Shown: positions 8,494-24,089 of the stretch, piece after piece
Position numbering within the stretch: position 1 is the stretch's first letter
Layout of the letters: each line of letters starts with the position of its first letter
NCBI GenBank assembly: GCA_027592945.1
Contig: JAQCJP010000001.1
Span: 1-51,780 of the forward strand
DNA: 51,780 nucleotides
DNA from: Planctomycetota bacterium
GTDB taxonomy: Bacteria > Planctomycetota > Planctomycetia > Pirellulales > UBA1268
Direction: 5' to 3'
Position numbers and translations under genes: made by a program
The notes under the pieces: model-generated
Seen by the model: only the letters and a program-made list of their open reading frames with translations
What the model was told of the DNA's origin: nothing
Databases searched by the model: none

Positions 8494-9444
8494 ATGACGA
8501 CCCGGTCGGTTCTCGAGCTGCGGGCCCGGCTGCGACACACGCTCCGGAATCTCTTTGACACCGCCGGCTTCCTGGAAGTCGATACGCCTGTCCTCGCAGC
8601 CGAGGTGCTGCCCGAGTCGCACATCGACCCGGTGCCCGTGCAGGTGGCCGGATGCGGTCCCTGTCGCTGGCTCCAGACCAGTCCCGAAAACCTCATGAAG
8701 CGGCTGCTGGCGGAAGGCAGTGGCAGCATCTACCAGTTTGCCCCGTCGTTTCGGGATGGCGAGCGGGGCCGGTGGCATGACATCGAGTTCGTCCTTCTCG
8801 AGTGGTATGCGCCGGGCACCACGCTCGATGATGCTGCGGAGTTGCTGGACCGCCTCTGCCGAGTCGCGATCGGCAGCCGGGGTCTCGATCGGATCACCTG
8901 CTCGGTGGCATTCGTCGACCACGCCGGCGTCGATCCGCTGCTTGCCTCCGCCGCCCAGCTGCAGACAGCGGTCGAGCGGCTGGGCCTGGCCCGACCGGAC
9001 GGGCTCGAGACCCTGCCCGAAGCCGACCTCTTCGACCGCTGCTTCGAGTTGCTGCTGGCCGAGGCGGTGCAGCCGCGGCTTGGGCACGACCGACCGGTGA
9101 TGCTCGAAGGCTGGCCGGCATCCCAGGCCGCCTTTGCCCGCCTCGACCCGGCCTGCCCGCAGCTCGCCCGCCGCTTCGAGCTCTTTGTCGGCGGTGTCGA
9201 ACTGGCCAACGGCTGGGAGGAAGACCCGTCCCGAGAACTGCTGGCCGAGCGGATCACGGCGGCCAACGAGATCCGTCGCCAGGATGGCCGGGGCGTGCTG
9301 CCGATGCCCGAGAAACTCCTGGCAGCCCACGGCCAGGCGATGCCGGCCGGCGTCGGCGCGGCCCTCGGCTTCGACCGCCTGGCGATGCTCGCCGCCGGAG
9401 CGTCATCGATCGACGAGGTCCGCTGCTTCCCCGACGGCAGCTGA
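8494..9444 (+). CDS. epmA: EF-P lysine aminoacylase (GenX/PoxA; truncated class II LysRS paralogue)
   Basis: The product is collinear with E. coli EpmA. Matching segments are FLEVDTPVL, LQTSPENLMKRLLAEG.G.IYQFAPSFRDGERGRWHDIEFVLLEWY, RFELFVGGVELANGW and GVGAALGFDRLAMLAAG. Confidence 0.85.
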   Translation: MTTRSVLELRARLRHTLRNLFDTAGFLEVDTPVLAAEVLPESHIDPVPVQVAGCGPCRWLQTSPENLMKRLLAEGSGSIYQFAPSFRDGERGRWHDIEFVLLEWYAPGTTLDDAAELLDRLCRVAIGSRGLDRITCSVAFVDHAGVDPLLASAAQLQTAVERLGLARPDGLETLPEADLFDRCFELLLAEAVQPRLGHDRPVMLEGWPASQAAFARLDPACPQLARRFELFVGGVELANGWEEDPSRELLAERITAANEIRRQDGRGVLPMPEKLLAAHGQAMPAGVGAALGFDRLAMLAAGASSIDEVRCFPDGS

Positions 9445-9742
9445 GCGGGGGGCAGCTGAGCGGGCTTCCGGGAGCCGGTCTCGCCCAACGGCCCGCCGTC
9501 CCCCCGGCTCGCGCCGGGGTACTTTTATGCGTATCGCACACCGGAAGACGGGCTCGCGCCGGGATGCTTTTACGGGGAGGGGTCGGTCGGGGGCACGCGC
9601 AGAAGCCGGGGAATCTTTGCGACTCAGAGCGGGGGCTCTATCGGCCAGATGAGCACCCTGTAGCAAAATCCCCCGGATTCGAGCATGTCCCTGCCGGCCC
9701 CGGTGGTCCCTGCCGAACGGCCCGCAGTCCCGCCCGGCTCGA

Positions 9743-10414
9743 TCAAGGCTCGACCGTCATCTCCTGCACCAGCCATCGCTCGAAACTGCCATCGCGTCGC
9801 CGTACCGCTCGCGGCTCGACGACGAGCCGCACCACGGCGGCCGAGCCCCCGCAGGCTGCTACGTCTGCCCGTACGAGCCAAGCAGACCCTCCCAGCTGGG
9901 CGGGCCGAGTCTCGATCACCACGGGAGCGGTCCGACCGCAGGCTGCAACGGCCCGGACCACGGGCAGGGCTGCGAAGGCCTGACGTTGCTCCTCCGGCGA
10001 GGGCTCTGGCGCCGGTGGCCGGCCCCGGCCCGGCAGGATCAGCGGATTGCAGAGTCCGGCTGCGTCTGTCAGTCGATCTTCGCGGACCGCATCGAGCCAC
10101 ACGGTGGCGGCGGCGGCCGCCCGTTGTCCGGCGATCACCCGGGCTGTGAAGGCTGCGGCAGCCGCCTGAGCCGCGAAACCGACGGCCAGGGCCAGGCCGG
10201 CCAGGGCCAGCGGCCGGCCGGTCGTGCGGCCCGCGCCGCGGCGGAGATCCCTCAAGGCAGCGACCGCCATCGCCACCGCCACCAGCGGCACCACCATCGC
10301 CAGCGGAGTGAACAAAACCGCTGCCGAGCCAACACCGGCGATCAGCGATGCCACCGCCCAGCCGCTGACTGGCCGATAGCCGGCCATCTCATCGCTCAAA
10401 GTACCGTGGGCCAT
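9743..10414 (-). CDS. Hypothetical membrane protein (two N-terminal TM helices plus a soluble domain)
   Basis: This is a track ORF with good coding bias and hydrophobic segments WAVASLIAGVGSAAVLFTPLAMVVPLVAVAMAVAAL and LALAGLALAVGFAAQAAAAAF. It is the last gene of the pilT string. No motif was recognised. Confidence 0.5.
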   Translation of the reverse strand: MAHGTLSDEMAGYRPVSGWAVASLIAGVGSAAVLFTPLAMVVPLVAVAMAVAALRDLRRGAGRTTGRPLALAGLALAVGFAAQAAAAAFTARVIAGQRAAAAATVWLDAVREDRLTDAAGLCNPLILPGRGRPPAPEPSPEEQRQAFAALPVVRAVAACGRTAPVVIETRPAQLGGSAWLVRADVAACGGSAAVVRLVVEPRAVRRRDGSFERWLVQEMTVEP

Positions 10415-10441
10415 GGGGGCGAACTGGTCAGCAAATGGCGA

Positions 10442-11032
10442 TTACTGCGGCTGCACGCGCAGAGCCGGTTCCTGCTCGAGGCTGCTGCGGCGGCTGGCGT
10501 AGCGGAGGATGAAGTCTGCCTCGGGGTCAAACGCCTTGGCCGGCGTGGCGAAGGGGCCGTCACGCGACGAGCCCCGCACCCAGGCAAGCCAGCGGCGGTC
10601 GGGAGCGAGCCCGAAGAACATCCGGCTCTCAGGTGTCGGCTGGATGAAGTCTCTCGGCAGCGGCGCCGTATGGAGCGAGGCCGCCGTGAAGCAGACCATC
10701 ACCCAGGCGGTGATCACGGCGACCAACGGACCAGCAGCGAGTTCCACCGGCTTGCGGAAGCGGACCCGTGTCCGAGACGCCCGATCGGTGACTTCGCGAA
10801 ACCCCAGCAGGAGCAGGCAGAAGAGGCCCTGGAGGACCACGAAATCAAGAAGGTAGGTATAGGACTTCGCCCGCGGCTCAATCAGGGCCACCACGAACGG
10901 ATACCAGGCTGTGGCCAGACTGGCGGCCAGCAGCAGATTGAGCAGCATGATCAGGCCGCTCCAGGGGCCCTCCCGCCAGATGGCAAAGGCCACGGCAATG
11001 AAGATTCCAAGCAGGATCAGCGAGATGATCAT
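10442..11032 (-). CDS. CvpA-family membrane protein
   Basis: Four predicted TM helices are present. The N-terminus MIISLILLGIFIAVAFAIWREGPWSGLIMLLNLLLAASLATAWYPFVVALIE follows the CvpA pattern. The start overlaps the upstream stop as ATGA. Confidence 0.6.
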   Translation of the reverse strand: MIISLILLGIFIAVAFAIWREGPWSGLIMLLNLLLAASLATAWYPFVVALIEPRAKSYTYLLDFVVLQGLFCLLLLGFREVTDRASRTRVRFRKPVELAAGPLVAVITAWVMVCFTAASLHTAPLPRDFIQPTPESRMFFGLAPDRRWLAWVRGSSRDGPFATPAKAFDPEADFILRYASRRSSLEQEPALRVQPQ

Positions 11033-12939
11033 GTCGCTCTCCTCCCGGCCGGCGGTGGCCCCGGGCGGGGGCCGCGGGGGGCCGCAACCGGCGGGGCTGC
11101 GGCCGCGTCAGCAGCCGGCCTCGGGCTCGTCGGTCCTGTCGGTGACGGGGCCTTCGCGGCCAGGGCCCGCTGGATCTCGTCGAGGGACGTGGCCCCTTCG
11201 ACCACGAGCGTCAGCGCCGCATCCCGCAGCGGCTGCATGCCATCGGCCAGGGCCGCCTTGCGGGTTTGGTCCGGCGAGCCGCCGCCGCCGATCGTCCGCC
11301 GCAGAGTGCCGCCGGAGGCCAGTTCAAAAACTGCCGTTCGGCCCAGATACTTCGAGCCGCAACAGATCCGGCACCCGTGTTCCGAGGGCCGATGGATCGC
11401 TGGCAGATCCTCAGCCGTGCGGCCTACCCGCTTGAGAAGCTGCTCAGGCGGCGGGATCTCCTCGCGGCACTTCGGGCAGACCCGCCGAACCATCCGCTGC
11501 GAAAGTGAGCCGAGCAGGACGGCCCCGAGCGACCGCGGGGAGACTCCCATAGCGAGCAGGCGGGCGACCGCATCGTTCGCGTCGCTCGCCTTGAGGCTGA
11601 CCAGCACGAGTTTGCCCTCGCCCGCCAGCCGGACCAGTTCCACCACCAGTTGTGGATCACGAACATCGCGGGCCACGATCGCCGAAGGATATTCCCGCAG
11701 GGCCTCGGCAAGGGCCGCCGTGGGCGGAACGCCGGTACGGGTATCAAACTTCACCGGCTTGACGTTCTGGATCTCCCGCGCGGGACGGGCGGCATCCTCG
11801 AGCGAGACGAAATCCCGCAGCAGCCGATCGGCTGCTTCGACCGCCATGTCGAAGGTCGTGGTCAGGCCCGAGCCCGCCGGCCCGGAAAAGAGGATCAGGC
11901 CCCGCTCGGCAGCCAAGAGTTCGACCAGCCGGGCGGCGATCGGCGCCGGCATACCGAGGTCGGCAAGCGTCTTGAAGGTAGCCGCCGGGGCCTCGATCTT
12001 GATGACGAGATGCTCGACCGGTTCCTTACCTGACGCGGACCGGATGGAAAGTTTGCAGTTGCGAGGCTTCCCGTCGACCAGGAGGGCAAACCGGCCGCTG
12101 CCGGCCGTGGCCTTCGCCGGCAGGCCACAGAGGGCCTTGAGGGCGGCCGCCATCGCCTCGCCAACACCGCGACTCGAGGGGACGGCATCGACCCACTTCT
12201 CCTTCTCCCGGCGGCTCTGCGGCGGCTGCCGGACCTTCGGCTTGCTCACCACGCCATCGACTTCCTGCCGGATCGTCGTTTCAGCGGCGATCTCGACAGC
12301 CAGCGTGGTCGCCCGCGCCACCACGGCCGCCAGCAACTGGCTGCGGGCCTCCTCGAAGCCAGGCAGGTCCCGGGCCGCAGTGAGGCGGGAGTCGTTTTCA
12401 GCGGTATCCGTGCCGCCGGCGGCTACCAACTCCACCGTGGGCAGAAGGTCGGCCTCGTTGAGCGGTTCGCTGATCTCGATGCCAATGGGTGCAAGGAGCC
12501 GGGCAAGGACGCGGCGGGCGTGGCCGGGAGTGAGGATCTGTTCGTTTGGTGAGACCTGCCGGTTTCGTGCCACCGCGTAGATCACCACGGGCACCAGCCA
12601 GGCCAGCAGCGTCAGAGCGATTCCGGCCAAGCCGGAGGGAATCCACCAGGCCAGCAGCGCTGCCAGTGGCAGCGGCAGGCCGCAGACGGTGCTCCAAAAC
12701 GCCGGCCGGATGCCGCGCTTGGTCGCGTCCCGAGCCACCCAGTCGACGGTTCGGACCCAGGCCACCACCAGCAGCCACCAGCCGAGAGCCGGCAGCACCG
12801 CCAGGCCGCCACCCGGACCTCGCCAGTCGGCTCCTACCGATGGCATCGGGGTGGGCCAGCCCTCATCCGCCCGCGTGACCCCGGGACCGAGCAGACTGCC
12901 CGCCTGGACGATGATGCCGATCGGCAGCCAGCGGCTCAT
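11029..12939 (-). CDS. Membrane-anchored GspE/PilB-family protein with degenerate ATPase motifs (predicted pseudo-ATPase)
   Basis: The N-terminal ~125 aa are Trp-rich TM helices. A GspE N2-like segment follows (GSGRFALLVDGK..LSIRSASGKEPVEHLVIKI). Walker A reads GPAGSGLTTT, with Leu in place of the invariant Lys (codon CTG, within 11860-11883). Walker B/Asp box reads AIVARDVRD instead of ..VGEIRD. The His box reads GKLVLVSLKASDA instead of GHLVLSTLHTNDA. The tetracysteine module is retained (CPKC..GCRIC..YLGRTAVFE). Confidence 0.8.
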   Translation of the reverse strand: MSRWLPIGIIVQAGSLLGPGVTRADEGWPTPMPSVGADWRGPGGGLAVLPALGWWLLVVAWVRTVDWVARDATKRGIRPAFWSTVCGLPLPLAALLAWWIPSGLAGIALTLLAWLVPVVIYAVARNRQVSPNEQILTPGHARRVLARLLAPIGIEISEPLNEADLLPTVELVAAGGTDTAENDSRLTAARDLPGFEEARSQLLAAVVARATTLAVEIAAETTIRQEVDGVVSKPKVRQPPQSRREKEKWVDAVPSSRGVGEAMAAALKALCGLPAKATAGSGRFALLVDGKPRNCKLSIRSASGKEPVEHLVIKIEAPAATFKTLADLGMPAPIAARLVELLAAERGLILFSGPAGSGLTTTFDMAVEAADRLLRDFVSLEDAARPAREIQNVKPVKFDTRTGVPPTAALAEALREYPSAIVARDVRDPQLVVELVRLAGEGKLVLVSLKASDANDAVARLLAMGVSPRSLGAVLLGSLSQRMVRRVCPKCREEIPPPEQLLKRVGRTAEDLPAIHRPSEHGCRICCGSKYLGRTAVFELASGGTLRRTIGGGGSPDQTRKAALADGMQPLRDAALTLVVEGATSLDEIQRALAAKAPSPTGPTSPRPAADAAAAPPVAAPRGPRPGPPPAGRRAT

Positions 12940-14099
12940 CAGGACACTCCGATGCCCTTGAGGGCCATCGTCAGCGCCTCGCGGTTGGGGGCGATCTCGA
13001 GGGCATCCTTGCGATCGATGAGATCCTGATCGATGAGGCTCTTGAGGCTCATCGTGAAGTCTTGCATCCCGTCGCGGTGCGATTTGCGGATGTGCTCCGG
13101 AAGTTCGTCATCTTCTCCCTCGAGGACGAGTTTTCGGACCATCACATCAAAGAACATGATTTCCACCGCCGGAACCCGGCTGACACCCAGCTCCTTGGCC
13201 TTGGGTCCTTCGGCTTTGACGAGCTTCTGGGCCACGATCCCCTTCATATTGTTGGCAATCGCGCTCCGCAGGGCGCCATGCATCTCCTCGGGAAAGAGAT
13301 CGAGAATCCGCCCGATCGTGGTAGCGGCACTGGAGGCGTGGATCGTGCCGAACACGAGATGCCCCGTCTCAGCGGCATGGATCGCCGTCATGAAGGTCTC
13401 CTCGTCCCGCATCTCGCCGACGAGAATGATGTCAGGGTCTTCGCGAACCGCATGCTTCATCCCGATGGCGAAGTCTTTGACGTCCTGGCCGACCTCGCGC
13501 TGGTTGATCAGGCACTTGTCTTCGGTGAAGACAAACTCGATCGGATCCTCGAGCGTGAGAATGTGCTTGCGATGATGCTGATTGATGTGCTGCAGCATCG
13601 AGGCGATCGTGGTGCTCTTGCCTGAGCCGGTGACACCGGCCAGGAGGATCATGCCCTGGTCGTATTCGCAGAGCCTGGCAATCGCCGGCGGCAGATGGAG
13701 ACCCTCGAAGTTCGGAATCGAGTTGTTGACCCGGCGGGCCACCAGCCCCAGCGACCCCTGCTGCGTCAGCAGATTGACGCGAAACCGCCAGCGGACTCCG
13801 TCGATCGTGGCCATGTGGGCGAAGTCGCAGCCCCCGTCGACCTCGAGAATCCGCTGGTTTCGTTCGTTGAGCATCGGCAGGCAGAGCCGCCGCATCTGCT
13901 CGTCGTCGATCGGCGGCGTCTTGAGCGGCTGCAGCGACCCCTTGACCCGGATGATCGGTGGCTGGCCAACCTTGAGATGGAGATCACTCCCCTGGAACTT
14001 GACCAGCGCCTGAAAGAAGCGATCGATCTCGAGCCGACCGGAGTCCGACGGGACGGAGGCAGCGGACGTCGGTGGAGCCGCGATATCGGCAGTGGACAT
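12939..14099 (-). CDS. pilT: Type IV pilus retraction ATPase PilT
   Basis: This is track ORF 12939..14195 trimmed to M33 (ATG at 14099), which avoids overlapping hisF. Walker A is intact (GVTGSGKSTT), as are ILVGEMRDEET and the His box GHLVFGTIHASSA. The N-terminus is PilT-like (LHLKVGQPPIIRVKG). Confidence 0.9.
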   Translation of the reverse strand: MSTADIAAPPTSAASVPSDSGRLEIDRFFQALVKFQGSDLHLKVGQPPIIRVKGSLQPLKTPPIDDEQMRRLCLPMLNERNQRILEVDGGCDFAHMATIDGVRWRFRVNLLTQQGSLGLVARRVNNSIPNFEGLHLPPAIARLCEYDQGMILLAGVTGSGKSTTIASMLQHINQHHRKHILTLEDPIEFVFTEDKCLINQREVGQDVKDFAIGMKHAVREDPDIILVGEMRDEETFMTAIHAAETGHLVFGTIHASSAATTIGRILDLFPEEMHGALRSAIANNMKGIVAQKLVKAEGPKAKELGVSRVPAVEIMFFDVMVRKLVLEGEDDELPEHIRKSHRDGMQDFTMSLKSLIDQDLIDRKDALEIAPNREALTMALKGIGVS

Positions 14100-14125
14100 G
14101 GGCGGGACGGGTTGGCGGGGATCGG

Positions 14126-14902
14126 TCAGTCTGAAGGCGGTCGAACCGGGATGCCATGCTCCTGGAAGACCTGCTTGACATCCCGGATCGTACACTCTCC
14201 AAAGTGGAAGATGCCAGCGGCAAGCGCTGCGTCAGCGCCTCCCTCCGAGACGGCGGCGGCCAAATGCTCGGGCCTGCCGGCCCCGCCGCTGGCGACCACC
14301 GGAATGCCGACGGCCCGGCTAACGGCGGCGGTGATCTCGAGGTCGTAGCCGTCGCGGGTGCCGTCGCGGTCCATGCAGGTCAGCACGATCTCACCGGCCC
14401 CCAGCGACTCGACCTTCTGGGCCCAGGCGACCGCCTCGAGGCCCGTGCCGACCCGCCCGCCGTTGACGAACACCTCCCAGACTTCACGGCCGTCCCGGAT
14501 CACCCGTTTGGGATCGATGTTGACCACGGTCGCGCAGCTGCCAAGCCGGTCGGCCACCGCCGTGACCAGCTGGGGCGTTCGCACCGCCGCCGAGTTGATG
14601 CTCACCTTCTCGGCCCCTGCCTGCACCAGTTGGCAGGCGTCTCCGAGCGTGCGAATCCCGCCGCCGACCGTGAAGGGCATGAAGATCGCCTCCGAGACCC
14701 GGCGGACCATGTCGAGCACGATCTCGCGACCCTCATGGCTGGCCGTGATGTCGAGAAAGACGAGCTCGTCTGCCCCTTCGGCCTCATAGCGGGCCGCGAC
14801 CGCGACCGGATCACCCGCATCGACAAGCTCGAGGAACTTGGTGCCTTTGACGACCCTGCCGCGGTCGACGTCGAGACAAGGAATGATGCGCTTGGCAAGC
14901 AT
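14126..14902 (-). CDS. hisF: Imidazole glycerol phosphate synthase cyclase subunit
   Basis: This is track ORF 14126..15142 trimmed to [20 protein letters not shown] (ATG at 14902). Motifs [25 protein letters not shown] and ASGGAG are present. Confidence 0.95.
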
Positions 14903-14903
14903 G

Positions 14904-15776
14904 TCAGGTTCCTGACTCGACGATGCGTCCGTCGTCAGGACTCGAGGCGGTGGCGTAGAGCCGCCGAGGGATGCGGCCGGCGAGAAAGGCGTGGCGGCCG
15001 GCCCGACAGGCGTCTCGCATGGCGGAGGCCATCCGGAGCGGATCGGCCGCCTGGGCGATCGCCGTGTTGAGCAGCACGCCATCGACGCCGAGTTCCATCG
15101 CCGCCGCGACGTCGCTGGCGGTGCCGACGCCGGCATCGACAATCACCGGATAGGCAGGATCGTCATCCTTGAGGTATTCGAGGCAGATCAGCAGGTTGTT
15201 GGGGTTGAGGATTCCCTGACCCGAACCGATCGGGCTGCCGGCCGGCATCACGGCGGCGGCACCGAGTTGCTTGAGCCGCCGGGCCACCACCGGATCGTCG
15301 CTGGTGTAAACCAAGACGGTGAATCCGTCGGCCACCAGCTGCTCGGTCGCCGCAAGGGTGCCGACCGGATCGGGCAGGAGCGTCTGCCGGTCGCCGAGCA
15401 CCTCGAGCTTCACCCAGTCGGCAGAGTCGCTCCCCATGTCACGAAGCAACTCCCGGCCCAGGCGGGCCACCCGCACCGCCTCGTCGGCCGTGAAGCAGCC
15501 GGCGGTGTTGGGAAGAAGGCGGTACCGGGCGGGATCGAGATGGTCGAGAATGTTCTCTCCGGCAGCGTTGAGCAGCCGATCCCGCCGAACGGCCACGGTC
15601 ACACAATCAGTGCCGGAGAGCTCGAGGCAGCGGGCCATCTCGGCGTAGGTGACGTACTTGCCGGTCCCGACGACGAGACGACTCTCCAGCCGAACGCCTC
15701 CGACCACCAGCGGCCGGTCGGCCGCCAGCCCCTGTTCGGCATGATCCGTCGCCGTGTCGCGCACCTCAGCCACCAC
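14904..15776 (-). CDS. thiG: Thiazole synthase
   Basis: Motifs are [61 protein letters not shown] and [15 protein letters not shown]. Confidence 0.9.
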
Positions 15777-15963
15777 CCACGAAGGTCACAATTTCGATCC
15801 GCTCACCGCCGCAGAGTCTGATCTCGGCCAGCCGACTGCGAGGCACCACCTCGCCATCAACCTCGACGGCCAACGGACGACCTGCGAGCCCCACCTCCTC
15901 GAGGAGGACCGCCAGCGATCCTTCCCGGGGCAGCGGCTGCGGCTGACCATTGACCGTGATCAC
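15766..15963 (-). CDS. thiS: Sulfur-carrier protein ThiS
   Basis: This is the C-terminal 65 codons of track ORF 15766..16374, starting at an in-frame GTG (15963). It reads (V)[60 protein letters not shown], with the terminal GG. It overlaps the thiG start by 11 nt. The start codon choice is uncertain. Confidence 0.65.
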
Positions 15964-15986
15964 CGGCGTTTCGCCGGCTCCACCGC

Positions 15987-16538
15987 TCACGGCACCCGCG
16001 GCCCGCCGCCCCGCGGCCGCGCGATATCGAGCGGAATCAGTTCGGCGATGGCGGGCTTGCCGGCTGTCGACTGCTGAGGGGACCAGGGTATGCCATAGGC
16101 CACGGTGACGCCTGTCGAGCCGTCCGTCACGTAGAGCACCGACTGGGCCATGCGGTTGCCCGAGTTGCCCCCAAAGGACGCCCGGCCGGGCACGATCAGG
16201 AACCGCGGGTTCTGCACCTGTCCCGGCTTGAAACCCAGATCCTTCAGCACGTTGTAGCGGTAGGTCGTCATGAACTTCGCCGTGTTTGGGTTGAGCACGC
16301 CGCCGGTGAGATCTCCCGTCTCGAAGTCGAGCATGAAAAAGCCTTCCATGTTCATGTCGATCGGGGCTGTGCAAACGGCAAACGTCTCGTCAGAGAGCGT
16401 CGACATCGCCTGGGCCCGGGGCCAGGAGGGAACCGGCAGTCGACCCGGCGCCATGCTGCCGGCCAGGAACGCCACGGCGGCAATCAGCACCATGCCGGCC
16501 GGGACAAGCATCTTCGTGAGCGACACCTTCGAGGACAT
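15987..16538 (-). CDS. Hypothetical membrane-anchored/exported protein
   Basis: This is a track ORF with an N-terminal hydrophobic anchor (MLVPAGMVLIAAVAFLAG) and good G/C3 bias. No motif was recognised. Confidence 0.5.
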   Translation of the reverse strand: MSSKVSLTKMLVPAGMVLIAAVAFLAGSMAPGRLPVPSWPRAQAMSTLSDETFAVCTAPIDMNMEGFFMLDFETGDLTGGVLNPNTAKFMTTYRYNVLKDLGFKPGQVQNPRFLIVPGRASFGGNSGNRMAQSVLYVTDGSTGVTVAYGIPWSPQQSTAGKPAIAELIPLDIARPRGGGPRVP

Positions 16539-16642
16539 GAAACAGGGCTCCCGTGTTGAAGTTCTTCGCGATGGACAGGGCCGCGGCGAACCCGCAGCTC
16601 TCCCGCCACGCCCCGCAGCCTACCGCCCCTGAAGCGGCGGGG

Positions 16643-18253
16643 CTACTCGCTTGCCTCCGGCTGCGATGCCGGCTGTTCGGCTGCCTGGATCACGGAAATC
16701 CGAAACTTCCCGATCGCGTGGCTGCCGTCGGAATACTGCTGATCGAGGGTGATCGCCAGCGGACCGCCCGGCGGCAGGATCAGATCGTCAGGCAGCCGGA
16801 AAGTGGCCGTCTGGGCCTTGCCGCTGCCTTGGCTGATGCCCCAACCGGTCTCGGGATTCGCGTCGATCGCGCCGGCGACAACGTAGTTGGGCTGTTCGAA
16901 GGTCGCCGTGGCAGAGGCAACCGGCACGGCTGTCGGAGTCTCCGGCGTGCCAGGCTGACCATGGGCCACGCCGAATGTGCTGAGCACAAAGTTGCCGTTA
17001 CCGGCCCGGCCCGGCCCTTGGGAGGGAAGGCTCGGATCAGGCAAGACCTCGAGTTGGAACGCTTCCACGCGAGGCCCGGAGGGGATGGTTGCCGTGAGCG
17101 TGTAGGTGTCTTTGGCGAGAGGCCCGGTCACCATCACGGTGCCGTCCTTGTCAATCGTCGCCGTCGCGCCGGCCGTGCTCGTGAACGCGGCGGGGACAAC
17201 CACGGCGATGGTCGGCTTCGGCGGTGGCGGCGGTGGTGGTGGCAGCAGTTTGGCTGCTGGCAGGGGCACGATCTGCGGCCCGGCGTGCGTTCCCACAAAG
17301 AGCGACTCCGCATCGGGCGTGAAGGCGACACACCAGACGCTGGAGGCCAAGGCCTCCGGCCCCTCCTGGCCTCGTTGCACGGCCACGTCCCAGAGCCTGA
17401 TCGCACCATCGAGGCTGCCGCTGGCTAGGCGGGTACCGTCGGACGAGAAGGCCAGGCTCGTCACCCAGTCTTTGTGGCCGGCAAGCGTCGCAGCCTCTTT
17501 CGCGTCGGCAGTTGTCCAGAGCCGCACGGTTCGATCCGCACCACAGCTGGCGAGCGTCTGCCCGTTCGGCGCATACGCCACCGCCCAGATGGCGTCGCCA
17601 TGCCCCTCGAGCCGGGCCTGCTCGGACCCGCTTGCCGGATCCCAGAGCTTGATCACCTTGTCACTGCCGCCGCTGGCGAGCGTCTTGCCATCTGGGGAAA
17701 AGGCGACGCACGTGGCCGCTCCATCGTGGGCGGTGATGGTCGTGACCTCGGCCCCGCTCGCCGGATCCCAGAGCACGACGCTGCCGTCTTCGCCGGCCGT
17801 GGCGAGCCGGCTGCCATCGGGTGAAAAGGCGAGCGACCGTACCCAACCCTTGTGTTTGACCAGGTCATGCCTGACGGTGCGGTCGGCGAGATTCCAGACC
17901 TTCACCAGGCCGTCGTAGCCGGCGGTCGCGGCCAGATTCCCGTCTGGCGAAATCCCGACGGCCCAGACCGCCGTCGGATGGCCCTCGAGGGCGGCGAGCT
18001 TGGAACCATCGGCAGCGTTCCAGGCCACCACGTCGCCACTGCGATAGAGCAGGCTCTCACCTCCCGCTGTCAGGAGGAGTTTGCCATCCGGCGCGTAGTC
18101 GGCGGCAATCACCCAGCGGGTGAAATTGGTCAGCCTGTCCGCGGCAGCAGGCTCCACCGGAGTGGATGCGGGGTCGTCACCACGGCTGCCGACGGTCAGG
18201 GAGGCGATCGCCACGGCGGCGATGAGATGCCGCAGGCTGATGATGATCTGCAT
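16643..18253 (-). CDS. Exported WD40-repeat (beta-propeller) protein with poly-Pro linker and C-terminal beta-sandwich-like domain
   Basis: After a signal peptide there are about seven repeats of the form GH...V..VAFSPDG..LAS.G.D..V.LWD. A PPPPPPPPKP linker follows. The C-terminal domain reads ATFEQPNYVVAGAIDANPETGWGISQG. Confidence 0.85.
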   Translation of the reverse strand: MQIIISLRHLIAAVAIASLTVGSRGDDPASTPVEPAAADRLTNFTRWVIAADYAPDGKLLLTAGGESLLYRSGDVVAWNAADGSKLAALEGHPTAVWAVGISPDGNLAATAGYDGLVKVWNLADRTVRHDLVKHKGWVRSLAFSPDGSRLATAGEDGSVVLWDPASGAEVTTITAHDGAATCVAFSPDGKTLASGGSDKVIKLWDPASGSEQARLEGHGDAIWAVAYAPNGQTLASCGADRTVRLWTTADAKEAATLAGHKDWVTSLAFSSDGTRLASGSLDGAIRLWDVAVQRGQEGPEALASSVWCVAFTPDAESLFVGTHAGPQIVPLPAAKLLPPPPPPPPKPTIAVVVPAAFTSTAGATATIDKDGTVMVTGPLAKDTYTLTATIPSGPRVEAFQLEVLPDPSLPSQGPGRAGNGNFVLSTFGVAHGQPGTPETPTAVPVASATATFEQPNYVVAGAIDANPETGWGISQGSGKAQTATFRLPDDLILPPGGPLAITLDQQYSDGSHAIGKFRISVIQAAEQPASQPEASE

Positions 18254-20283: not shown

Positions 20284-20452
20284 CTGAGCGAGTCGAACCC
20301 GACCGACCGAATCCTTGCGGTCGCCGCCCGGCGTGCAGAAATTAGGATTCGAACAGGCCGGGGGGCAGGGCCGTAGGACTTTTCAGCGACAGCCAGCGGG
20401 GTTTCTTCCTCGCACGAAAAAAGGTTGCTTCGCTGCAGGTCATTCCACGTGC

Positions 20453-23400
20453 ATGGATTGGAGCGTCCCTATGGTCACTCGCAACGGGGGTATCGAAGAG
20501 GGCAACGAGACCGGCGGTCGCCGGGATGCAGGCCGGGCCGCCAGCCGGCAGATGCGTCGCCGGCACGAACGGCGGCTGCGGGCGAAGCGTGCCAAAGGGC
20601 CTGCTCAACTGACTGCCGAATCGCTCGAGACGCGAGCCCTGCTGGCGGCGGTCGTGGCCGACTATGGCGTGGCCGGTGACTGGGGCAGCGGCTTTCAGGC
20701 GGGGATCACCCTTGAGAGCCAGGACGCCGCGGCGGTGGAGAACTGGACGCTTTCCTTTGACTACGAGGCCACGATCGGCTCGATCTGGGATGCCCAAGTC
20801 GTCTCCCGAGACGGCTCGACGTACACGATCCAGGGGGCGGGCTGGAACAGTGACCTGGCCCCGGGTGGCAAGATCTCCTTCGGCTTTATCGGCATACCCG
20901 AGGGCATGGGACCGGCCGCTCCGCCGACCAACTACACGCTCAACGGCGAACTGCTCGGTGAATTCACGCCCGCTCCCGAGCCGGTGCCGACACCACTGCC
21001 GACGCCCGTACCCGCCCCCACGCCAACCCCCGAACCTGCCCCGACCGACCCTGCGGTCGCCTTCATAGTGACGAGCGACTGGGGCAGTGGCTTCAATGGC
21101 GATCTGACTGTGACCAACACCGGGACTGCAGCGATCACCGAGTGGGAGGTATCCTTCGACTTTGATGGCGAGATCGCCAGCCTCTGGAACGGCGAGATCG
21201 TCTCGCGGTCGGGTTCGAGGTACACCGTGACCAACACCTCCTGGAACGGTTCGCTGGCGGCGGGCGGGTCGGCCACGATCGGGTTCACGGCATCGCCCGG
21301 CGGCGCAGCGGCCGTGCTGCGAAACGTTGCCGTCGTGCTGGGCGGGGCAGTCGCGCCGCTGCCTGAGCCAGCCCCGGCACCCGAGCCGACACCTGCTCCG
21401 GCCCCCGCGCCTGAGCCCGCCCCGACCCCCGGCGACGGCACGCCGATCGACGACGCCACCGCCGGCCTCAACACCGGCAACCCCGGCGACGAGAAGTGGG
21501 GCGAGGCCCACTTCGCCCCCTACGTCGACATGGGGCTCTGGCCGGTGCCCGATCTCACCGAGATCGCCCGCACCCGCGGCACCTCGCTGTTGACGCTCGG
21601 CTTCATGCAGGCCGCACCCAACGGCGAGCCCGCCTGGGCCGGGCTGGCGGCGCTGGCGCCCGATGCCGACTTCGACCAGGCCCGGGCGATCAACGCCTCG
21701 ATCGCCGACTTCCAGGCAGCTGGCGGCGATGTGATGATCTCGCTGGGCGGGGCATTCGGCACGAGCCTGGCCCAGTCGTTTGTCGCCTCGGGCCGCAGTG
21801 CCACCGCCCTGGCAGCGACCTACGCCTCGATCGTCGACTGGTATTCGCTCAACCGGCTCGACTTCGACATCGAGGGGGCAGCGGTGGCCGATCCCGCTTC
21901 GATCGCCCTGCGGAGCGAGGCGATCGCGATCCTCCAGCAGGTTCGGCCCGATCTCGAGGTCTGGTACACGCTGCCGGTGCTGCCGGCCGGCCTGACGGCC
22001 GACGGCCTGAATGTCGTCCGATCGGCCCTGGCCGCCGGCGTGACCCTCGACGGCGTCAACGTGATGGCGATGAACTACGGCTCCTGGGCGGCACCAACCA
22101 GCGGGCCAGACGCCCGGCCGATGGGCGAGTATGCGATCGCCGCGGCCGAGAGCACCCACGCCCAGTTGACCACGCTCTTCGCCGAGCAGGGTCAGGCCTT
22201 TGCCTGGCGGATGCTCGGAGTGACGCCGATGATCGGGGTCAACGATCTGACGTCCGAGGTCTTCACCGTCTCCGACGCCCAGCTGCTTGAAGACTTCGCC
22301 CGCGAGAAGGGCCTCGGCATGCTCTCGATGTGGTCGGTGGCCCGCGACAATCCGGGCGACCTCGGCCGCGCGACCGCCACCGCCTCCGGCCTCGACGTGG
22401 CCGCCGGCAGCTTCAGCGGCGTGTTCACCGATTACGGCACGCAGAACACGCTCGACCTCGGCGGAGGCGATCCGGTTGCCCCGCCGGTCGACCCGGTGCC
22501 GCCCGCGGACCCGGTGCCGAGCGACCCGGTCGACGAGGGGCCGACGGATCCCGTGCCGACCGACCCCGTCCCGACCGATCCTGCTCCGCAGCCCGAGCCG
22601 GAGCCGGTCGATCCCGCTCCGGTCGTGCCCCCGCCGGTCACCGAGACTCCGATCGATCCGGCTCCGGTCGACCCGGTGCCCGTCGATCCCACCCCGGCTG
22701 ATCCCGGCGACCCGGCGGCCCTGCCGATCGCCAGCCACGACAAGGTCCTGGCGGCCTACTTCCCCGAGTGGGGCATCTACGGTCGCAACTTCCAGGTCGC
22801 CGACGTGCCGGCTGAGAACCTCACCCACCTGATTTATTCGTTCCTCGATCTCAAGAGCTCGGGCGAGGTCGCCATCTACGACTCCTATGCGGCGGTCGAG
22901 AAGCGGTTCGCCGCCCACGAGACGGTCAGCGGGGAGGCCGACCAGTGGTACTACCCGCCGGGCGATCCGCGGGCCGAGCAGACCGTCTGGGGCAACTTCG
23001 CCCAGCTGGCCCAGCTCAAGGAGAAGTATCCGCACCTCAAGGTGACGATCGCGGTCGGCGGCTGGACGCTCTCCGACCACTTCAGCACGGTCGCCGCGAC
23101 CGAGGCGGGCCGGGAGACCATGGCGCGTTCGATCGAGACCTTCCTCGACACCTACCGGATGTTCGACGGGATCGACTTCGACTGGGAGTATCCAGGTGGC
23201 GGCGGCGAGGCGGGCAACTCGGTCAGCCCCGACGACGGGGCCAACTATGCCCTCCTGCTGGCCAACGTCCGCGGCAAGCTCGACGCCCTCGGGGCCCGGC
23301 TGGGCCGCAGGTACGAGATCTCGGTGGCCGCCCCGGGCGGCTCCGACAAGATCGTGAACTTCAACGCGGCGGGCCTCGCCCCCCACATCGATTACTTCAA

Positions 23401-24016
23401 CCTGATGTCGTATGACTTCCACGGCACCTGGGAGACCACGACGGGCCATCAGTCGGCCTTCACCGCCGACCCGATCGGCTACGACATCGAGACGGCCGTC
23501 CAGGCCTACCTCGACGCGGGCATCGATCCGGGCCAGCTCGTCCTGGGGGCGCCGCTCTACACGCGGGCCTGGCAGGGCGCGGCCGACGGGGGCGACGGCG
23601 GCTACGCCGAGTCGACCAGCGGGGCCGCCCCGGGCACGTTCGAGAAGGGCGTCTACGACTACAAGGACCTGCTCGGCCAGGTGCAGGATCCGGCCAACGG
23701 CTGGCAGCTCTACTGGGACGACACCGCCCAGGCGAGCTACGTCTACCAGCCGAGCACCGGGATCTTCAGCTCGTTCGAGACTCCCAGCTCGATTGCCCAG
23801 AAGAGCGAATGGGCCACCGCCCTGGGGCTCGGCGGCATGATGTTCTGGGACATCACCAACGACGCCCTTGATTCCTCGGAGAGCCTGGTGAAGGCGGCCT
23901 ACGACTCGTGGGTGCTCGATGACGACTTCGCCACGATCCGCGAGCGGTCGAGCCTGACCAACGAGATCGTCGTCGGCGGCGACGGCAGCATCGGCCCGCT
24001 CCCGCTCCTGGAATGA
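20453..24016 (+). CDS. Secreted multidomain chitinase: 2 x CBM2-like plus 2 x GH18 catalytic domains
   Basis: This is track ORF 20315..24016 trimmed to the ATG at 20453. The N-terminus is basic and carries ESLETRALLAA (20618-20650). There are two CBM2-like modules (DWGSGFQAGITL..NW.LSF.. and DWGSGFNGDLTVTNTG..EWEVSF..NTSWNGSLAAGGSATIGF). GH18 domain 1 has LDFDIEG (DFDIE at 21860-21874). GH18 domain 2 has the canonical FDGIDFDWEYPGG (23165-23188), MSYDFHG and GGMMFWD. P/T/D-rich linkers separate the domains. Confidence 0.9.
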   Translation: MDWSVPMVTRNGGIEEGNETGGRRDAGRAASRQMRRRHERRLRAKRAKGPAQLTAESLETRALLAAVVADYGVAGDWGSGFQAGITLESQDAAAVENWTLSFDYEATIGSIWDAQVVSRDGSTYTIQGAGWNSDLAPGGKISFGFIGIPEGMGPAAPPTNYTLNGELLGEFTPAPEPVPTPLPTPVPAPTPTPEPAPTDPAVAFIVTSDWGSGFNGDLTVTNTGTAAITEWEVSFDFDGEIASLWNGEIVSRSGSRYTVTNTSWNGSLAAGGSATIGFTASPGGAAAVLRNVAVVLGGAVAPLPEPAPAPEPTPAPAPAPEPAPTPGDGTPIDDATAGLNTGNPGDEKWGEAHFAPYVDMGLWPVPDLTEIARTRGTSLLTLGFMQAAPNGEPAWAGLAALAPDADFDQARAINASIADFQAAGGDVMISLGGAFGTSLAQSFVASGRSATALAATYASIVDWYSLNRLDFDIEGAAVADPASIALRSEAIAILQQVRPDLEVWYTLPVLPAGLTADGLNVVRSALAAGVTLDGVNVMAMNYGSWAAPTSGPDARPMGEYAIAAAESTHAQLTTLFAEQGQAFAWRMLGVTPMIGVNDLTSEVFTVSDAQLLEDFAREKGLGMLSMWSVARDNPGDLGRATATASGLDVAAGSFSGVFTDYGTQNTLDLGGGDPVAPPVDPVPPADPVPSDPVDEGPTDPVPTDPVPTDPAPQPEPEPVDPAPVVPPPVTETPIDPAPVDPVPVDPTPADPGDPAALPIASHDKVLAAYFPEWGIYGRNFQVADVPAENLTHLIYSFLDLKSSGEVAIYDSYAAVEKRFAAHETVSGEADQWYYPPGDPRAEQTVWGNFAQLAQLKEKYPHLKVTIAVGGWTLSDHFSTVAATEAGRETMARSIETFLDTYRMFDGIDFDWEYPGGGGEAGNSVSPDDGANYALLLANVRGKLDALGARLGRRYEISVAAPGGSDKIVNFNAAGLAPHIDYFNLMSYDFHGTWETTTGHQSAFTADPIGYDIETAVQAYLDAGIDPGQLVLGAPLYTRAWQGAADGGDGGYAESTSGAAPGTFEKGVYDYKDLLGQVQDPANGWQLYWDDTAQASYVYQPSTGIFSSFETPSSIAQKSEWATALGLGGMMFWDITNDALDSSESLVKAAYDSWVLDDDFATIRERSSLTNEIVVGGDGSIGPLPLLE

Positions 24017-24089
24017 GCGGAGCGGTTTGCACGCCCAGCCGGCTTCGCTGAAGATGCTTCGGTTTTGCATCTTCCAGCAGCAGGCAACC

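What the first reader, a model, noticed from the sequence alone, without database searches (positions are those of the whole stretch)
11029..12939. Membrane-anchored GspE/PilB-family protein that has lost the catalytic Walker A lysine, Walker B glutamate and His-box histidines
The protein keeps the secretion-ATPase architecture, including the N2-like domain, the core fold and the CPKC...CRIC zinc module. The catalytic motifs are degenerate:
- Walker A is GPAGSGLTTT, with a CTG Leu codon where the invariant Lys should be.
- The VGEIRD box reads ARDVRD.
- The His box GHLV.STLHTNDA reads GKLVLVSLKASDA.

It also carries an N-terminal Trp-rich multi-TM domain of about 125 aa, which cytoplasmic GspE/PilB/PilT ATPases normally lack. 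This suggests a membrane-integral pseudo-ATPase that could scaffold or regulate the intact PilT encoded immediately upstream, for example by forming hetero-hexamers or a docking platform. I do not recognise this as a described pilus or T2SS component.
Basis: seen in the sequence. Interest (0 to 1): 0.66.

Follow-up and report, generated by a model that had tools for sequence, protein, structure and literature searches.

The report
Membrane-anchored dead PilB-like ATPase beside PilT
This gene encodes a membrane-anchored relative of the pilus and secretion motor ATPases that has lost its ATP-handling residues yet is strictly conserved across many planctomycete bacteria, always between an intact PilT motor gene and a CvpA-family membrane-protein gene, which points to an undescribed three-part membrane module.

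Summary
ORF 11029-12939 (-) encodes a 636-aa protein with a signal-like N-terminus, three Trp-rich TM helices, and a PilB/GspE N2 + CTD fold with the CxxC...CxxC zinc module.

- **Active site:** Walker A Lys is Leu (CTG, 11863-11865), Walker B GE is RD, and both His-box His are Lys.
- **Not a decaying pseudogene:** dN/dS is 0.12 against a 93%-identical orthologue. Of 367 TM-bearing relatives, 318 have Leu at that position. Every nucleotide-contacting residue that is invariant in 124 active TM-anchored relatives (for example Tautonia, Isosphaeraceae) is replaced in 336 "dead" ones, while the zinc subdomain is kept.
- **Gene context:** pilT lies immediately upstream in 75/75 loci and overlaps X by 1 nt in the 7 dead-clade junctions with gene calls. 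A CvpA-like gene lies immediately downstream in 76/76 loci. Two natural CvpA-X fusion proteins exist.
- **Orthologues in the same slot** range from intact to fully degenerate.

The most likely role is a non-catalytic membrane adaptor that couples the PilT motor to the CvpA-like protein; this is inferred, not shown. No description turned up in seven full-text searches. I rate it a new variant of a known kind, interest about 0.6.

The parts
11029..12939 (-). X: 636-aa membrane-anchored PilB/GspE-type pseudo-ATPase (whole ORF)
   Evidence: ORF listed. Pfam T2SSE 131 bits. PDB alignments. 120 full-length homologues at 55-99% identity.
12868..12939 (-). Residues 1-24: signal-peptide-like (or TM0) N-terminus. 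Cleavage is inferred, not tested.
   Evidence: Sequence MSRWLPIGIIVQAGSLLGPGVTRA. Active relatives start MIRPRLVLATIALAVFGVAAGAEA.
12568..12807 (-). Residues 45-124: three Trp-rich TM helices with a K/R-rich cytoplasmic loop at 66-79
   Evidence: Hydropathy and charge counts. AF2 helices 45-74, 79-99 and 103-126. Invariant W55, W61, W67, D71, W82, W98 and W99.
12010..12447 (-). Residues about 165-310: N2-like domain. The DIHxEP motif and the Arg residues invariant in active relatives are replaced.
   Evidence: pLDDT 80-93. Aligned to M. xanthus PilB 165-558 and to GspE. Foldseek. Positions 212, 214, 217, 226, 279 and 281 are lost.
11158..12009 (-). Residues 311-594: CTD (RecA-like core plus zinc-containing C-terminal subdomain)
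   Evidence: Pfam T2SSE 309-591. PilF alignment.
11854..11886 (-). Walker A remnant SGPAGSGLTTT; Leu359 (CTG, 11863-11865) replaces the Lys
   Evidence: Leu in 318 of 367 TM-bearing relatives.
11656..11682 (-). Walker B remnant AIVARDVRD (the GE of canonical proteins is RD here)
   Evidence: R-D in 307 of 367 relatives.
11578..11616 (-). His-box remnant GKLVLVSLKASDA (both His are Lys)
   Evidence: R or K at both positions in most relatives.
11362..11478 (-). Tetracysteine zinc module CPKC...CRIC (retained)
   Evidence: CCCC in 361 of 367 relatives.
12939..14099 (-). Intact PilT-family ATPase (386 aa from the ATG at 14099). Its stop overlaps the X start by 1 nt (TGATG).
   Evidence: TIGR01420 388 bits against cut-off 319. 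267 bits to Aquifex PilT with all motifs present. Junction sequence. Immediately upstream in 75/75 loci.
10442..11032 (-). CvpA-like (Colicin_V family) membrane protein, 196 aa. Its start overlaps the X stop (ATGA).
   Evidence: PF02674 28 bits, just below the gathering cut-off of 29.3; clearer in relatives. Junction sequence. Immediately downstream in 76/76 loci. Fused to X in P0143 and P0200.
9743..10414 (-). 223-aa membrane protein with no Pfam match, the fourth gene of the run. It is conserved only in closer relatives.
   Evidence: 33-52% identity in 64 loci. Weakly detected in L096 and absent in L085, L086 and L090.

Best explanation
X is a catalytically dead, membrane-anchored descendant of a PilB/GspE-type ATPase. 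It keeps the N2+CTD fold and the zinc subdomain, and it keeps an ancient anchor made of a signal-like N-terminus plus three TM helices. Every residue class that binds or hydrolyses ATP has been replaced by a different, conserved set: Walker A K to L, Asp-box tail, Walker B GE to RD, His box HH to KK, and the N2 DIHxEP and Arg motifs.

It is made from a translationally coupled pilT-X-cvpA(-223 aa) transcript. I propose that X forms a ring-shaped, non-enzymatic adaptor fixed in the inner membrane. Its TM domain would engage the CvpA-like protein, and its cytoplasmic ring would dock the soluble PilT hexamer. PilT, the only ATP-hydrolysing partner, would then be held at, and mechanically coupled to, that membrane complex.

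**Shown:**
- the architecture and the motif replacement;
- purifying selection;
- the operon structure and its conservation;
- the CvpA-X fusion proteins;
- active orthologues in the same gene slot.

**Inferred:**
- loss of ATPase activity, from established mutagenesis of Walker A Lys in GspE, PilB and PilT;
- hexamer formation;
- binding to PilT and CvpA;
- the cellular output (pilus retraction or an envelope function), which remains unknown.
For: **Motif register and replacement.**
- fix the register and the replacements.
- The pattern holds family-wide: 318 of 367 relatives have Leu, 277 combine Leu with RD, and 361 keep CCCC.

**Comparison of 124 active with 336 dead relatives.** The residues invariant in active proteins and lost in dead ones are the N2 motifs (212, 214, 217, 226, 279, 281, 314), Walker A, the Asp-box tail, Walker B and the His box. 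The C-terminal subdomain 481-591 is largely kept.

**Selection.** dN/dS is 0.12 overall and 0.06 for CTD residues 311-476.

**Fold.** Foldseek gives PilF, PilB and GspE at probability 1.0.

**Operon.**
- The junctions are TGATG and ATGA overlaps.
- pilT is immediately upstream in 75/75 loci and cvpA immediately downstream in 76/76.
- The same trio is found at 27-34% identity of X in different surroundings.

**Fusions.** P0143 carries a CvpA-like domain at residues 4-189 (155 bits), and P0200 a weaker one at E 3e-7.

**Gene junctions by clade.**
- The pilT/X 1-nt overlap occurs at 7/7 dead-clade junctions with gene calls: six loci plus this window.
- Non-dead orthologues have 39-141 nt gaps.

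**Precedent.** Two secretion-ATPase-family hexamers can work through direct contact: PilT bridges PilU to the machine.
Against: - No interaction was tested. No multimer model, co-evolution analysis or experiment was possible.
- The link between the dead state and PilT is not exclusive. A fully intact TM-anchored orthologue (P0265) also follows pilT, and an active one (P0199) has cvpA but no pilT.
- The replaced pocket keeps positive charges (R424, K443, K450; Arg after the Leu in 147 of 367 relatives). Some ligand binding, or even residual catalysis, is therefore not excluded.
- No pilins, PilC, PilM or secretin lie in the 51-kb window, so the output of the module is unknown.
- Gene order around the cluster (thiG-hisF ... 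epmA-usp) is also conserved in the close relatives. Part of the synteny signal is therefore phylogenetic inertia.
- The AF2 model is only moderate: pLDDT 69, pTM 0.41.
Confidence: 0.5

Rival explanations
1. X is a ligand-sensing switch. The remodelled pocket (hydrophobic Leu plus Arg/Lys at the Walker B and His-box positions) binds, without hydrolysing, a nucleotide, a second messenger or another anionic ligand. Binding would allosterically gate PilT or CvpA activity, rather than X merely anchoring them.
For: The pocket residues are not random. Leu, R-D and R/K...R/K are each conserved down to 27% identity, and the CTD has dN/dS 0.06. That pattern suggests a selected new site rather than an abandoned one. 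Arg follows the Leu in 147 of 367 relatives.
Against: - The N2 Arg and DIHxEP motifs that complete the nucleotide site in active relatives are lost too.
- Position 424 is Pro or Cys in about 10% of dead members.
- No known ligand-binding domain was detected, including MshEN/T2SSE_N.
- Nothing was tested directly.
Confidence: 0.2
2. X works with the CvpA-like protein independently of PilT, for example in envelope homeostasis or export. The neighbouring pilT would then be an inherited, functionally separate gene.
For: - An active TM-anchored relative in a cluster that UniRef assigns to Schlesneria paludicola sits next to a Colicin_V gene with no pilT.
- CvpA-X fusions exist, but no PilT-X fusion was seen.
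- pilT genes commonly lie away from other pilus genes (general knowledge).
Against: - pilT is immediately upstream in 75/75 loci.
- The 1-nt stop/start overlap occurs at every dead-clade junction with gene calls.
- The pilT-X pair persists where cvpA is missing (L094).
- The pair persists down to 27% identity of X.
Confidence: 0.15
3. X is still an ATPase that uses relocated catalytic residues. Arg424 or the His-box Lys/Arg would replace the Walker A Lys and Asp425 the Walker B Glu, in the manner of a 'with-no-lysine' enzyme.
For: Positive charges appear at three pocket positions and a carboxylate is retained at 425. The P-loop glycine G358 is invariant.
Against: - The compensating Arg is not universal: Pro, Cys, His or Ala occur at 424 in many Leu-bearing members.
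- The Mg-binding Ser/Thr after the Lys position is Arg in 40% of relatives.
- The Asp-box tail and the N2 arginines are lost.
- Walker A Lys substitutions abolish function in GspE, PilB and PilT (established knowledge).
Confidence: 0.07
4. X is a strain-specific decaying pseudogene, or the motif assignment is an alignment artefact.
For: None beyond the degenerate motifs themselves.
Against: - The reading frame is intact, and there are 120 full-length homologues at 55-99% identity.
- 114 species-level genomes encode a relative, and 80 of those loci were examined.
- dN/dS is 0.12.
- The substituted residues are themselves conserved.
- The register is fixed by three independent PDB alignments.
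Confidence: 0.01

Closest known systems
[quoted passage not shown]
   Same: - Homologous N2 + CTD fold.
- T2SSE Pfam domain.
- CxxC...CxxC zinc module typical of the GspE/PilB branch. PMC5061722 describes a metal-binding domain in EpsE whose zinc coordination is essential (title and abstract).
   Different: - No Walker A Lys, Walker B Glu, His-box His or N2 arginine/DIHxEP motifs.
- No N1 or T2SSE_N domain.
- It carries its own signal-like segment plus a three-TM anchor, instead of being recruited by GspL, PilM or PilC.
- It scores far below the NCBIfam equivalog cut-offs: 151 against 630 for GspE and 137 against 676 for PilB.
- It is encoded with pilT and cvpA, not with pilC or gspF.
Active membrane-anchored GspE/PulE-family proteins of Planctomycetota (for example Tautonia plasticadhaerens P0529, T. 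sociabilis P0485, and P0199, whose cluster UniRef assigns to Schlesneria paludicola)
   Same: - Same overall architecture and length (about 580-620 aa).
- Same TM-domain signature (W..T.DWV.D ... RNxxVP..K/Q.LT..H) and zinc module.
- Some occupy the same hisF-pilT-X(-cvpA) slot.
   Different: - They keep canonical Walker A, Walker B and His box in 113 of 118 cases, so they are presumably real ATPases.
- The pilT-X junction has a gap rather than an overlap.
- They are annotated only generically, and no publication on them turned up in my searches.
The PilT-PilU pair of retraction ATPases
   Same: - Two tandemly encoded members of the secretion-ATPase superfamily, of which one depends on the other.
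- PilT bridges PilU to the machine through direct contacts. This is a precedent for PilT working in contact with a second ring.
   Different: - PilU is a soluble, catalytically active PilT paralogue.
- X belongs to the PilB/GspE branch (zinc module), is membrane-embedded and lacks the catalytic residues.
- X scores only 48 bits on TIGR01420 against a cut-off of 319.
CvpA (colicin V production protein family, PF02674), the partner rather than X itself
   Same: The downstream gene and its orthologues match PF02674. It is a small polytopic inner-membrane protein.
   Different: - The function of CvpA is described as largely unknown (bioRxiv 10.1101/2020.09.25.314492, abstract).
- I found no reported link between CvpA and PilT- or PilB-type ATPases.
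- The window copy scores 28.0 bits, just under the Pfam cut-off of 29.3.
Non-catalytic ATPase-fold scaffolds in related machines (for example TadZ/CpaE with an atypical Walker A; the actin-like cytoplasmic domain of GspL). Cited from general knowledge, not tested here.
   Same: The concept is the same: an NTPase fold that has lost catalysis and serves to position or anchor the real motor.
   Different: These are unrelated folds (ParA/MinD-like, actin-like). None is a PilB/GspE homologue, and none carries this TM domain.

Membership tests
Secretion ATPase superfamily (PilT/VirB11-like; Pfam T2SSE PF00437) | Significant match to the T2SSE domain model | tested here: met
   131.4 bits against gathering cut-off 24.9, residues 309-591.
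Secretion ATPase superfamily (PilT/VirB11-like; Pfam T2SSE PF00437) | Bilobed N2 (PAS-like) + RecA-like CTD fold | tested here: met
   Foldseek probability 1.0 to PilF, PilB and GspE over about 410 columns, TM-score normalised by target 0.56-0.59. The model confidence is moderate.
Secretion ATPase superfamily (PilT/VirB11-like; Pfam T2SSE PF00437) | Walker A GxxGxGK[ST] | tested here: not met
   GPAGSGLT, Leu359. No such motif occurs anywhere in X or in 120 homologues.
Secretion ATPase superfamily (PilT/VirB11-like; Pfam T2SSE PF00437) | Asp box, Walker B catalytic Glu and His-box histidines | tested here: not met
   EDAARPARE, ARDVRD and GKLVLVSLKASDA. These positions are lost in 336 dead relatives compared with 124 active ones.
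Secretion ATPase superfamily (PilT/VirB11-like; Pfam T2SSE PF00437) | ATP hydrolysis and hexamer formation | not testable with these tools
   Needs purified protein or multimer modelling.
GspE (T2SS ATPase) or PilB (T4aP extension ATPase) equivalogs | Score above the NCBIfam equivalog cut-off | tested here: not met
   TIGR02533 scores 150.9 against 630.25. TIGR02538 scores 136.6 against 675.65.
GspE (T2SS ATPase) or PilB (T4aP extension ATPase) equivalogs | Tetracysteine zinc-binding motif in the CTD | tested here: met
   C488, C491, C523 and C526. CCCC in 361 of 367 relatives.
GspE (T2SS ATPase) or PilB (T4aP extension ATPase) equivalogs | Soluble protein with an N1/T2SSE_N domain, recruited by GspL or PilM/PilC | tested here: not met
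   No T2SSE_N hit. Residues 1-125 are a signal-like segment plus three TM helices.
GspE (T2SS ATPase) or PilB (T4aP extension ATPase) equivalogs | Encoded with platform (PilC/GspF), pilin and secretin genes | tested here: not met
   None was found among 24 ORFs scanned across the 51-kb window, nor in flanks of 3-9 kb in the related loci with gene calls. The whole genome was not available.
PilT/PilU retraction ATPases | TIGR01420 subfamily score | tested here: not met
   48.4 bits against 319.1 for X. The upstream gene passes at 388.3 bits.
Planctomycete membrane-anchored GspE-like family (defined here, not a curated family) | Signal-like N-terminus plus three TM helices with the W..T.DWV..D and RNxxV...LT..H signatures, followed by N2+CTD+Zn | tested here: met
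   Full-length alignment to more than 100 50%-identity representatives at 27-58% identity. Signatures are shared with active members.
Planctomycete membrane-anchored GspE-like family (defined here, not a curated family) | Adjacent CvpA-like gene and, usually, an upstream pilT | tested here: met
   76/76 and 75/75 loci. Distant members. Exceptions.

The most novel reading that the evidence does not exclude
pilT-X-cvpA encodes a previously unrecognised, phylum-wide inner-membrane machine of Planctomycetota that is not a conventional pilus or T2SS. A soluble PilT hexamer would supply the power, and a membrane-embedded ring of dead PilB-like subunits would act as the transmission or stator. A CvpA-family protein would be the working membrane element. 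This would give CvpA its first mechanistic partner and show that a secretion-ATPase ring can be repurposed as a passive, membrane-integral coupling device.
Probability: 0.2. Interest if true: 0.8.

Novelty: new variant of a known kind. Interest (0 to 1): 0.6.

Why it matters
- **For motor ATPase biology.** Secretion and pilus ATPases are textbook soluble hexameric motors that dock transiently on membrane platforms. This family carries its own membrane anchor, and in one large clade it has swapped out every ATP-handling residue while staying under strong selection and translationally coupled to a real PilT motor. If X is a passive ring that couples PilT to the membrane, it adds a new design principle, a pseudo-enzyme transmission element, to the type IV filament superfamily.
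- **For CvpA.** The family is widespread, matters for bile resistance and gut colonisation in enteric pathogens, and has no known mechanism. This module links it to an ATP-driven partner for the first time and makes its function testable.
- **For pseudo-enzyme evolution.** Orthologues in the same gene slot run from intact through partly degenerate to fully dead. That gives a natural series for studying how a motor becomes a scaffold.
- **For planctomycete cell biology.** The finding points to a conserved, unstudied envelope module in a phylum whose surface biology is poorly understood.

Tried and rejected
1. **Hidden canonical Walker A or wrong register.** Rejected. A regex over X and 120 homologues found none, and three PDB alignments agree on the register.
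2. **Decaying pseudogene.** Rejected.
3. **X's TM domain is itself a CvpA-like domain.** A secondary hmmsearch hit suggested this. Profile-profile comparison gave probability 0.3%, so it is rejected.
4. **Strict rule that dead X goes with pilT and active X goes without it.** Not supported. Intact P0265 follows pilT, and partly degenerate P0201, P0236 and P0257 do too. Only the tightness of the junction (1-nt overlap against 39-141 nt gaps) tracks the dead clade, and the sample is small.
5. **Relocated catalytic Arg424.** Weakened, because Pro, Cys or His occur at that position in many Leu-bearing members.
6. **Metagenome scan for more contexts of active TM-anchored relatives.** The tool chose generic Walker A and Asp-box patterns. 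It returned only ordinary PilB/GspE matching residues of about 120-200 onward at 40-48% identity, so it gave no useful context.
7. **Promoter and terminator scan of 9400-16700.** Nothing above the shuffle expectation. The operon structure rests on the gene overlaps.
8. **Other pilus or T2SS genes in the window.** None found.
9. **Seven full-text literature searches.** None found a description of this family or of a PilT-CvpA link. The library lacks most subscription journals, so this is absence of evidence only.
10. **Second structure job** (a fusion protein or a complex). Not run. The tool returns no interface confidence, and only window or homologue sequences may be submitted.


Full report
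**1.

The ORF at 11029..12939 on the minus strand is intact and encodes 636 aa. It matches Pfam T2SSE (PF00437) at 131 bits against a cut-off of 24.9, over residues 309-591. It scores far below the NCBIfam equivalog cut-offs for GspE (151 against 630), PilB (137 against 676) and PilT (48 against 319).

phmmer against all PDB sequences finds Thermus PilF, Myxococcus PilB and Vibrio GspE as best hits. The printed alignments fix the register:

| Motif | X | Thermus PilF |
|---|---|---|
| Walker A | GPAGSGLT-TT | GPTGSGKSFTT |
| Asp box | LEDAARPAREI | IEDPVE--YEI |
| Walker B | SAIVARDVRD | DIIMVGEIRD |
| His box | GKLVLVSLKASDA | GHLVIATLHTNDA |
| Zinc module | CPKC...CRIC | CEHC...CERC |

No GxxGxGK[ST] exists elsewhere in the protein or in its homologues.

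The N-terminus is as described:
- Eleven of the twelve Trp residues lie in the first 130 residues.
- Hydropathy peaks and AF2 helices at 45-74, 79-99 and 103-126 give three TM helices.
- The K/R-rich loop 66-79 and the segment after TM3 put the ATPase-like part in the cytoplasm.
- Residues 1-24 look like a signal peptide. This is inferred. Active relatives have a classic MIRPRLVLA...AGAEA start.

The AF2 model has mean pLDDT 69, with 80-93 over residues 170-310. Foldseek matches it to PilF, PilB and GspE N2+CTD structures with probability 1.0 over about 410 columns.

**2. It is a conserved family, not decay**

- A word-indexed search found 321 proteins at E <= 1e-10. The best 120 are 559-667 aa long (most 610-660), cover 83-100% of the query, and are 55-99% identical.
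- In their alignment the substituted residues are themselves conserved: Leu359 in 118/121 (Val in 3), Arg424 in 119/121, Asp425 in 121/121 and Lys450 in 113/121. The TM domain is among the best conserved parts.
- A scan of one genome per species found 114 encoding genomes. Eighty were examined. Nearly all are MAGs labelled Planctomycetota, Pirellulales or Planctomycetaceae, and a few carry other labels that are probably mis-assignments (my judgement).
- Against the 93%-identical orthologue in L005, dN = 0.034 and dS = 0.274, so dN/dS is 0.12. For CTD residues 311-476, which hold the degenerate motifs, the ratio is 0.06.

**3. The family is much wider and includes active members**

An exhaustive HMMER search of 1.84 billion representatives gave 437 hits at E <= 1e-30. 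About 100 of the top 150 align over the TM domain, N2 and CTD at 27-58% identity. Their motif table and a neighbour-joining tree of the CTD show three groups:
- a large "Leu clade", which includes X;
- TM-anchored proteins that are partly degenerate (Walker A K or R, His box lost);
- TM-anchored proteins with fully canonical motifs that branch next to ordinary soluble PilB/GspE.

A search seeded with the intact member P0265 found 118 relatives. Of these, 113 keep Walker A, Walker B, the His box and the TM anchor. They include the cultured Isosphaeraceae Tautonia plasticadhaerens and T. sociabilis, annotated simply as "GspE/PulE family protein". They share the TM-domain signatures with X: W..T.DWV.D, and RNxxVP...LT..H after TM3.

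I compared 124 active with 336 dead members column by column.
- Residues invariant in the active group and lost in the dead group are the N2 DIHxEP motif (212, 214, 217), Arg226, the RRxxQD motif (279, 281), Arg314, the Walker A Gly/Thr/Lys, the Asp-box tail, Walker B G-E and both His-box His.
- The C-terminal zinc subdomain (481-591) and the structural glycines are mostly kept.

The whole nucleotide site has therefore been replaced while the fold is preserved. That is the signature of a pseudo-enzyme. Loss of hydrolysis itself is inferred from the established effect of Walker A Lys substitutions in GspE, PilB and PilT.

**4. Gene context**

In the window, the pilT stop and the X start overlap by one base (TGATG). 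The X stop and the start of the next gene overlap as ATGA.

- **Upstream gene.** It is a bona fide PilT: TIGR01420 at 388 bits against 319, and 267 bits to Aquifex PilT with all motifs intact. Its real start is probably the ATG at 14099, because homologues are 371-398 aa.
- **Downstream gene.** The 196-aa protein matches Colicin_V/CvpA at 28.0 bits, just under the cut-off of 29.3. Its orthologues pass more clearly.
- **Fourth gene.** A 223-aa membrane protein follows.

Across the 80 genome loci, pilT is immediately upstream in 75/75 and the CvpA-like gene immediately downstream in 76/76 where the contig reaches. The wider order thiG-hisF-pilT-X-cvpA...epmA-usp is also conserved in those loci, so part of this signal is inertia.

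The trio persists in more distant members:

| Member | Identity to X / state | Context |
|---|---|---|
| P0136 | 34% | pilT-X-ColicinV-262 aa |
| P0174 | 28% | hisF-pilT-X-ColicinV |
| P0383 | 8.76-Mb contig | hisF-pilT-X-ColicinV-285 aa |
| P0201 | Walker A and B intact, His box lost | thiS-thiG-...-hisF-pilT-X-ColicinV |
| P0257 | partly degenerate | hisF-pilT-X-191 aa (CvpA-like by tblastn) |

Exceptions are informative:
- Intact P0265 sits in hisF-pilT-X, but the contig ends there.
- P0236 has pilT-X without cvpA.
- Intact P0199, whose cluster UniRef assigns to Schlesneria paludicola, has X-ColicinV without pilT.
- Intact P0247 has neither.

In dead-clade loci with gene calls, the pilT/X junction is a 1-nt overlap in 7/7, counting six loci plus this window. 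In the four non-dead orthologues it is a 39-141 nt gap.

Two natural fusion proteins carry a CvpA-like domain in front of the X TM domain: P0143 at 155 bits against an HMM built from 88 syntenic CvpA-like genes, and P0200 at E 3e-7. The domain order (CvpA then X) is the reverse of the gene order, so simple read-through does not explain them.

No pilin, PilC/GspF, PilM or secretin gene is present among the ORFs scanned across the 51-kb window.

**5. How it most likely works**

*Shown:* a membrane-anchored PilB/GspE fold with a replaced nucleotide site, under purifying selection, co-translated with an intact PilT and a CvpA-family membrane protein, and sometimes fused to the latter.

*Inferred:*
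- X no longer hydrolyses ATP.
- Like its relatives it forms a ring, now fixed in the membrane by 18 TM helices.
- Its TM domain contacts the CvpA-like protein.
- Its cytoplasmic face docks the PilT hexamer, which supplies all the energy.

The PilT-PilU system shows that PilT can work through direct contact with a second ATPase of the same superfamily.

The same gene slot holds intact, partly degenerate and dead versions. This suggests an ancestral two-motor module (membrane-anchored PilB-like plus PilT) in which one motor became a passive coupling element in the Pirellulales-type lineages.

I put about 0.5 on this adaptor model. The rivals are:
- a ligand-sensing switch (0.2), because the pocket keeps conserved positive charges;
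- a CvpA-only function with pilT merely adjacent (0.15);
- non-canonical catalysis (0.07), weakened because the would-be compensating Arg424 is Pro, Cys or His in many members;
- a pseudogene or alignment artefact (0.01).

The cellular output (pilus retraction, uptake or envelope maintenance) is unknown.

**6. Comparison with known systems and novelty**

- X is a member by descent of the secretion-ATPase superfamily (fold and Pfam domain met).
- It fails the defining catalytic motifs, the equivalog scores, the soluble N1-dependent recruitment and the gene context of GspE, PilB, PilT and PilU, so it should not be filed as any of them.
- Public annotations call its relatives "hypothetical protein", "general secretion pathway protein E", "ATPase, T2SS/T4P/T4SS family" or "TadA".
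- Seven full-text searches found no description of a TM-anchored PilB-like family, of a dead PilB-like partner of PilT, or of a CvpA link to these ATPases. The function of CvpA is stated to be largely unknown.
- I rate it a new variant of a known kind: a pseudo-enzyme clade within an undescribed membrane-anchored branch of a well-known ATPase family. It may form a new module with PilT and CvpA.

**7. Verdict**

The pseudo-ATPase reading and the PilT linkage hold. The scaffolding role is untested.
- Interest is 0.6. This is unusual for the field and opens testable questions about CvpA and planctomycete envelope machinery, but it rests on sequence and synteny only.

Noticed in passing
window 14126-16538 (-) and related loci L001, L003, L086, L090, L095, L096: pilT is tightly packed behind hisF (26-nt gap), and hisF behind thiG and thiS. 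The hisF-pilT adjacency persists even in distant planctomycete loci where X is only 27-30% identical. A 170-183-aa ORF with no Pfam match (window 15987-16538) also precedes thiS in the two relatives with gene calls that I checked (L001, L003).
   Followed up: partly
proteins P0226 (814 aa) and P0246 (969 aa): These are active TM-anchored GspE-like ATPases with an N-terminal FHA domain (PF00498) ahead of the TM segments. That suggests phospho-threonine-dependent regulation of some members of the anchored family.
   Followed up: no
proteins P0184, P0194, P0215, P0219, P0221 and others (about 980-1050 aa): A group of roughly 1000-aa proteins gives two separate matches to X and has fully canonical motifs. 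They look like tandem or extended PilB/PilF-like ATPases. Their source organisms are unknown.
   Followed up: no
window 12939-14195 (-): The mechanical ORF for pilT starts at a GTG at 14195 and overlaps hisF. Homologues are 371-398 aa, so the ATG at 14099 (386 aa) is the likely start. The segment aligned to the Aquifex PilT 'AIRNLIRE' region reads VMVRKLVLEGE, a divergent version.
   Followed up: partly
window 20315-24016 (+): A 1233-aa protein with two CBM2 carbohydrate-binding modules and a GH18 chitinase domain. It is followed by an FGGY sugar kinase (24027-25625) and preceded by a 575-aa protein with a weak fucose-isomerase-C hit.
   Followed up: no
window 40843-41868 (-) and 42612-44747 (-): A flotillin-like FloA gene (471 bits) lies downstream of a 711-aa NfeD-family membrane protein on the same strand, about 740 nt apart. 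This is the usual FloA/NfeD pairing.
   Followed up: no
window 16643-18253 (-): A 536-aa WD40 beta-propeller protein with a poly-proline linker and a C-terminal domain that has no Pfam match.
   Followed up: no
alignment of 367 TM-bearing relatives, position 360 of X: In 147 of 367 relatives the residue after the Walker-A Leu is Arg (G-L-R-T-T) instead of the Mg-binding Ser/Thr. X itself has Thr. It is unexplained whether this Arg compensates for the missing Lys or fills the pocket.
   Followed up: partly
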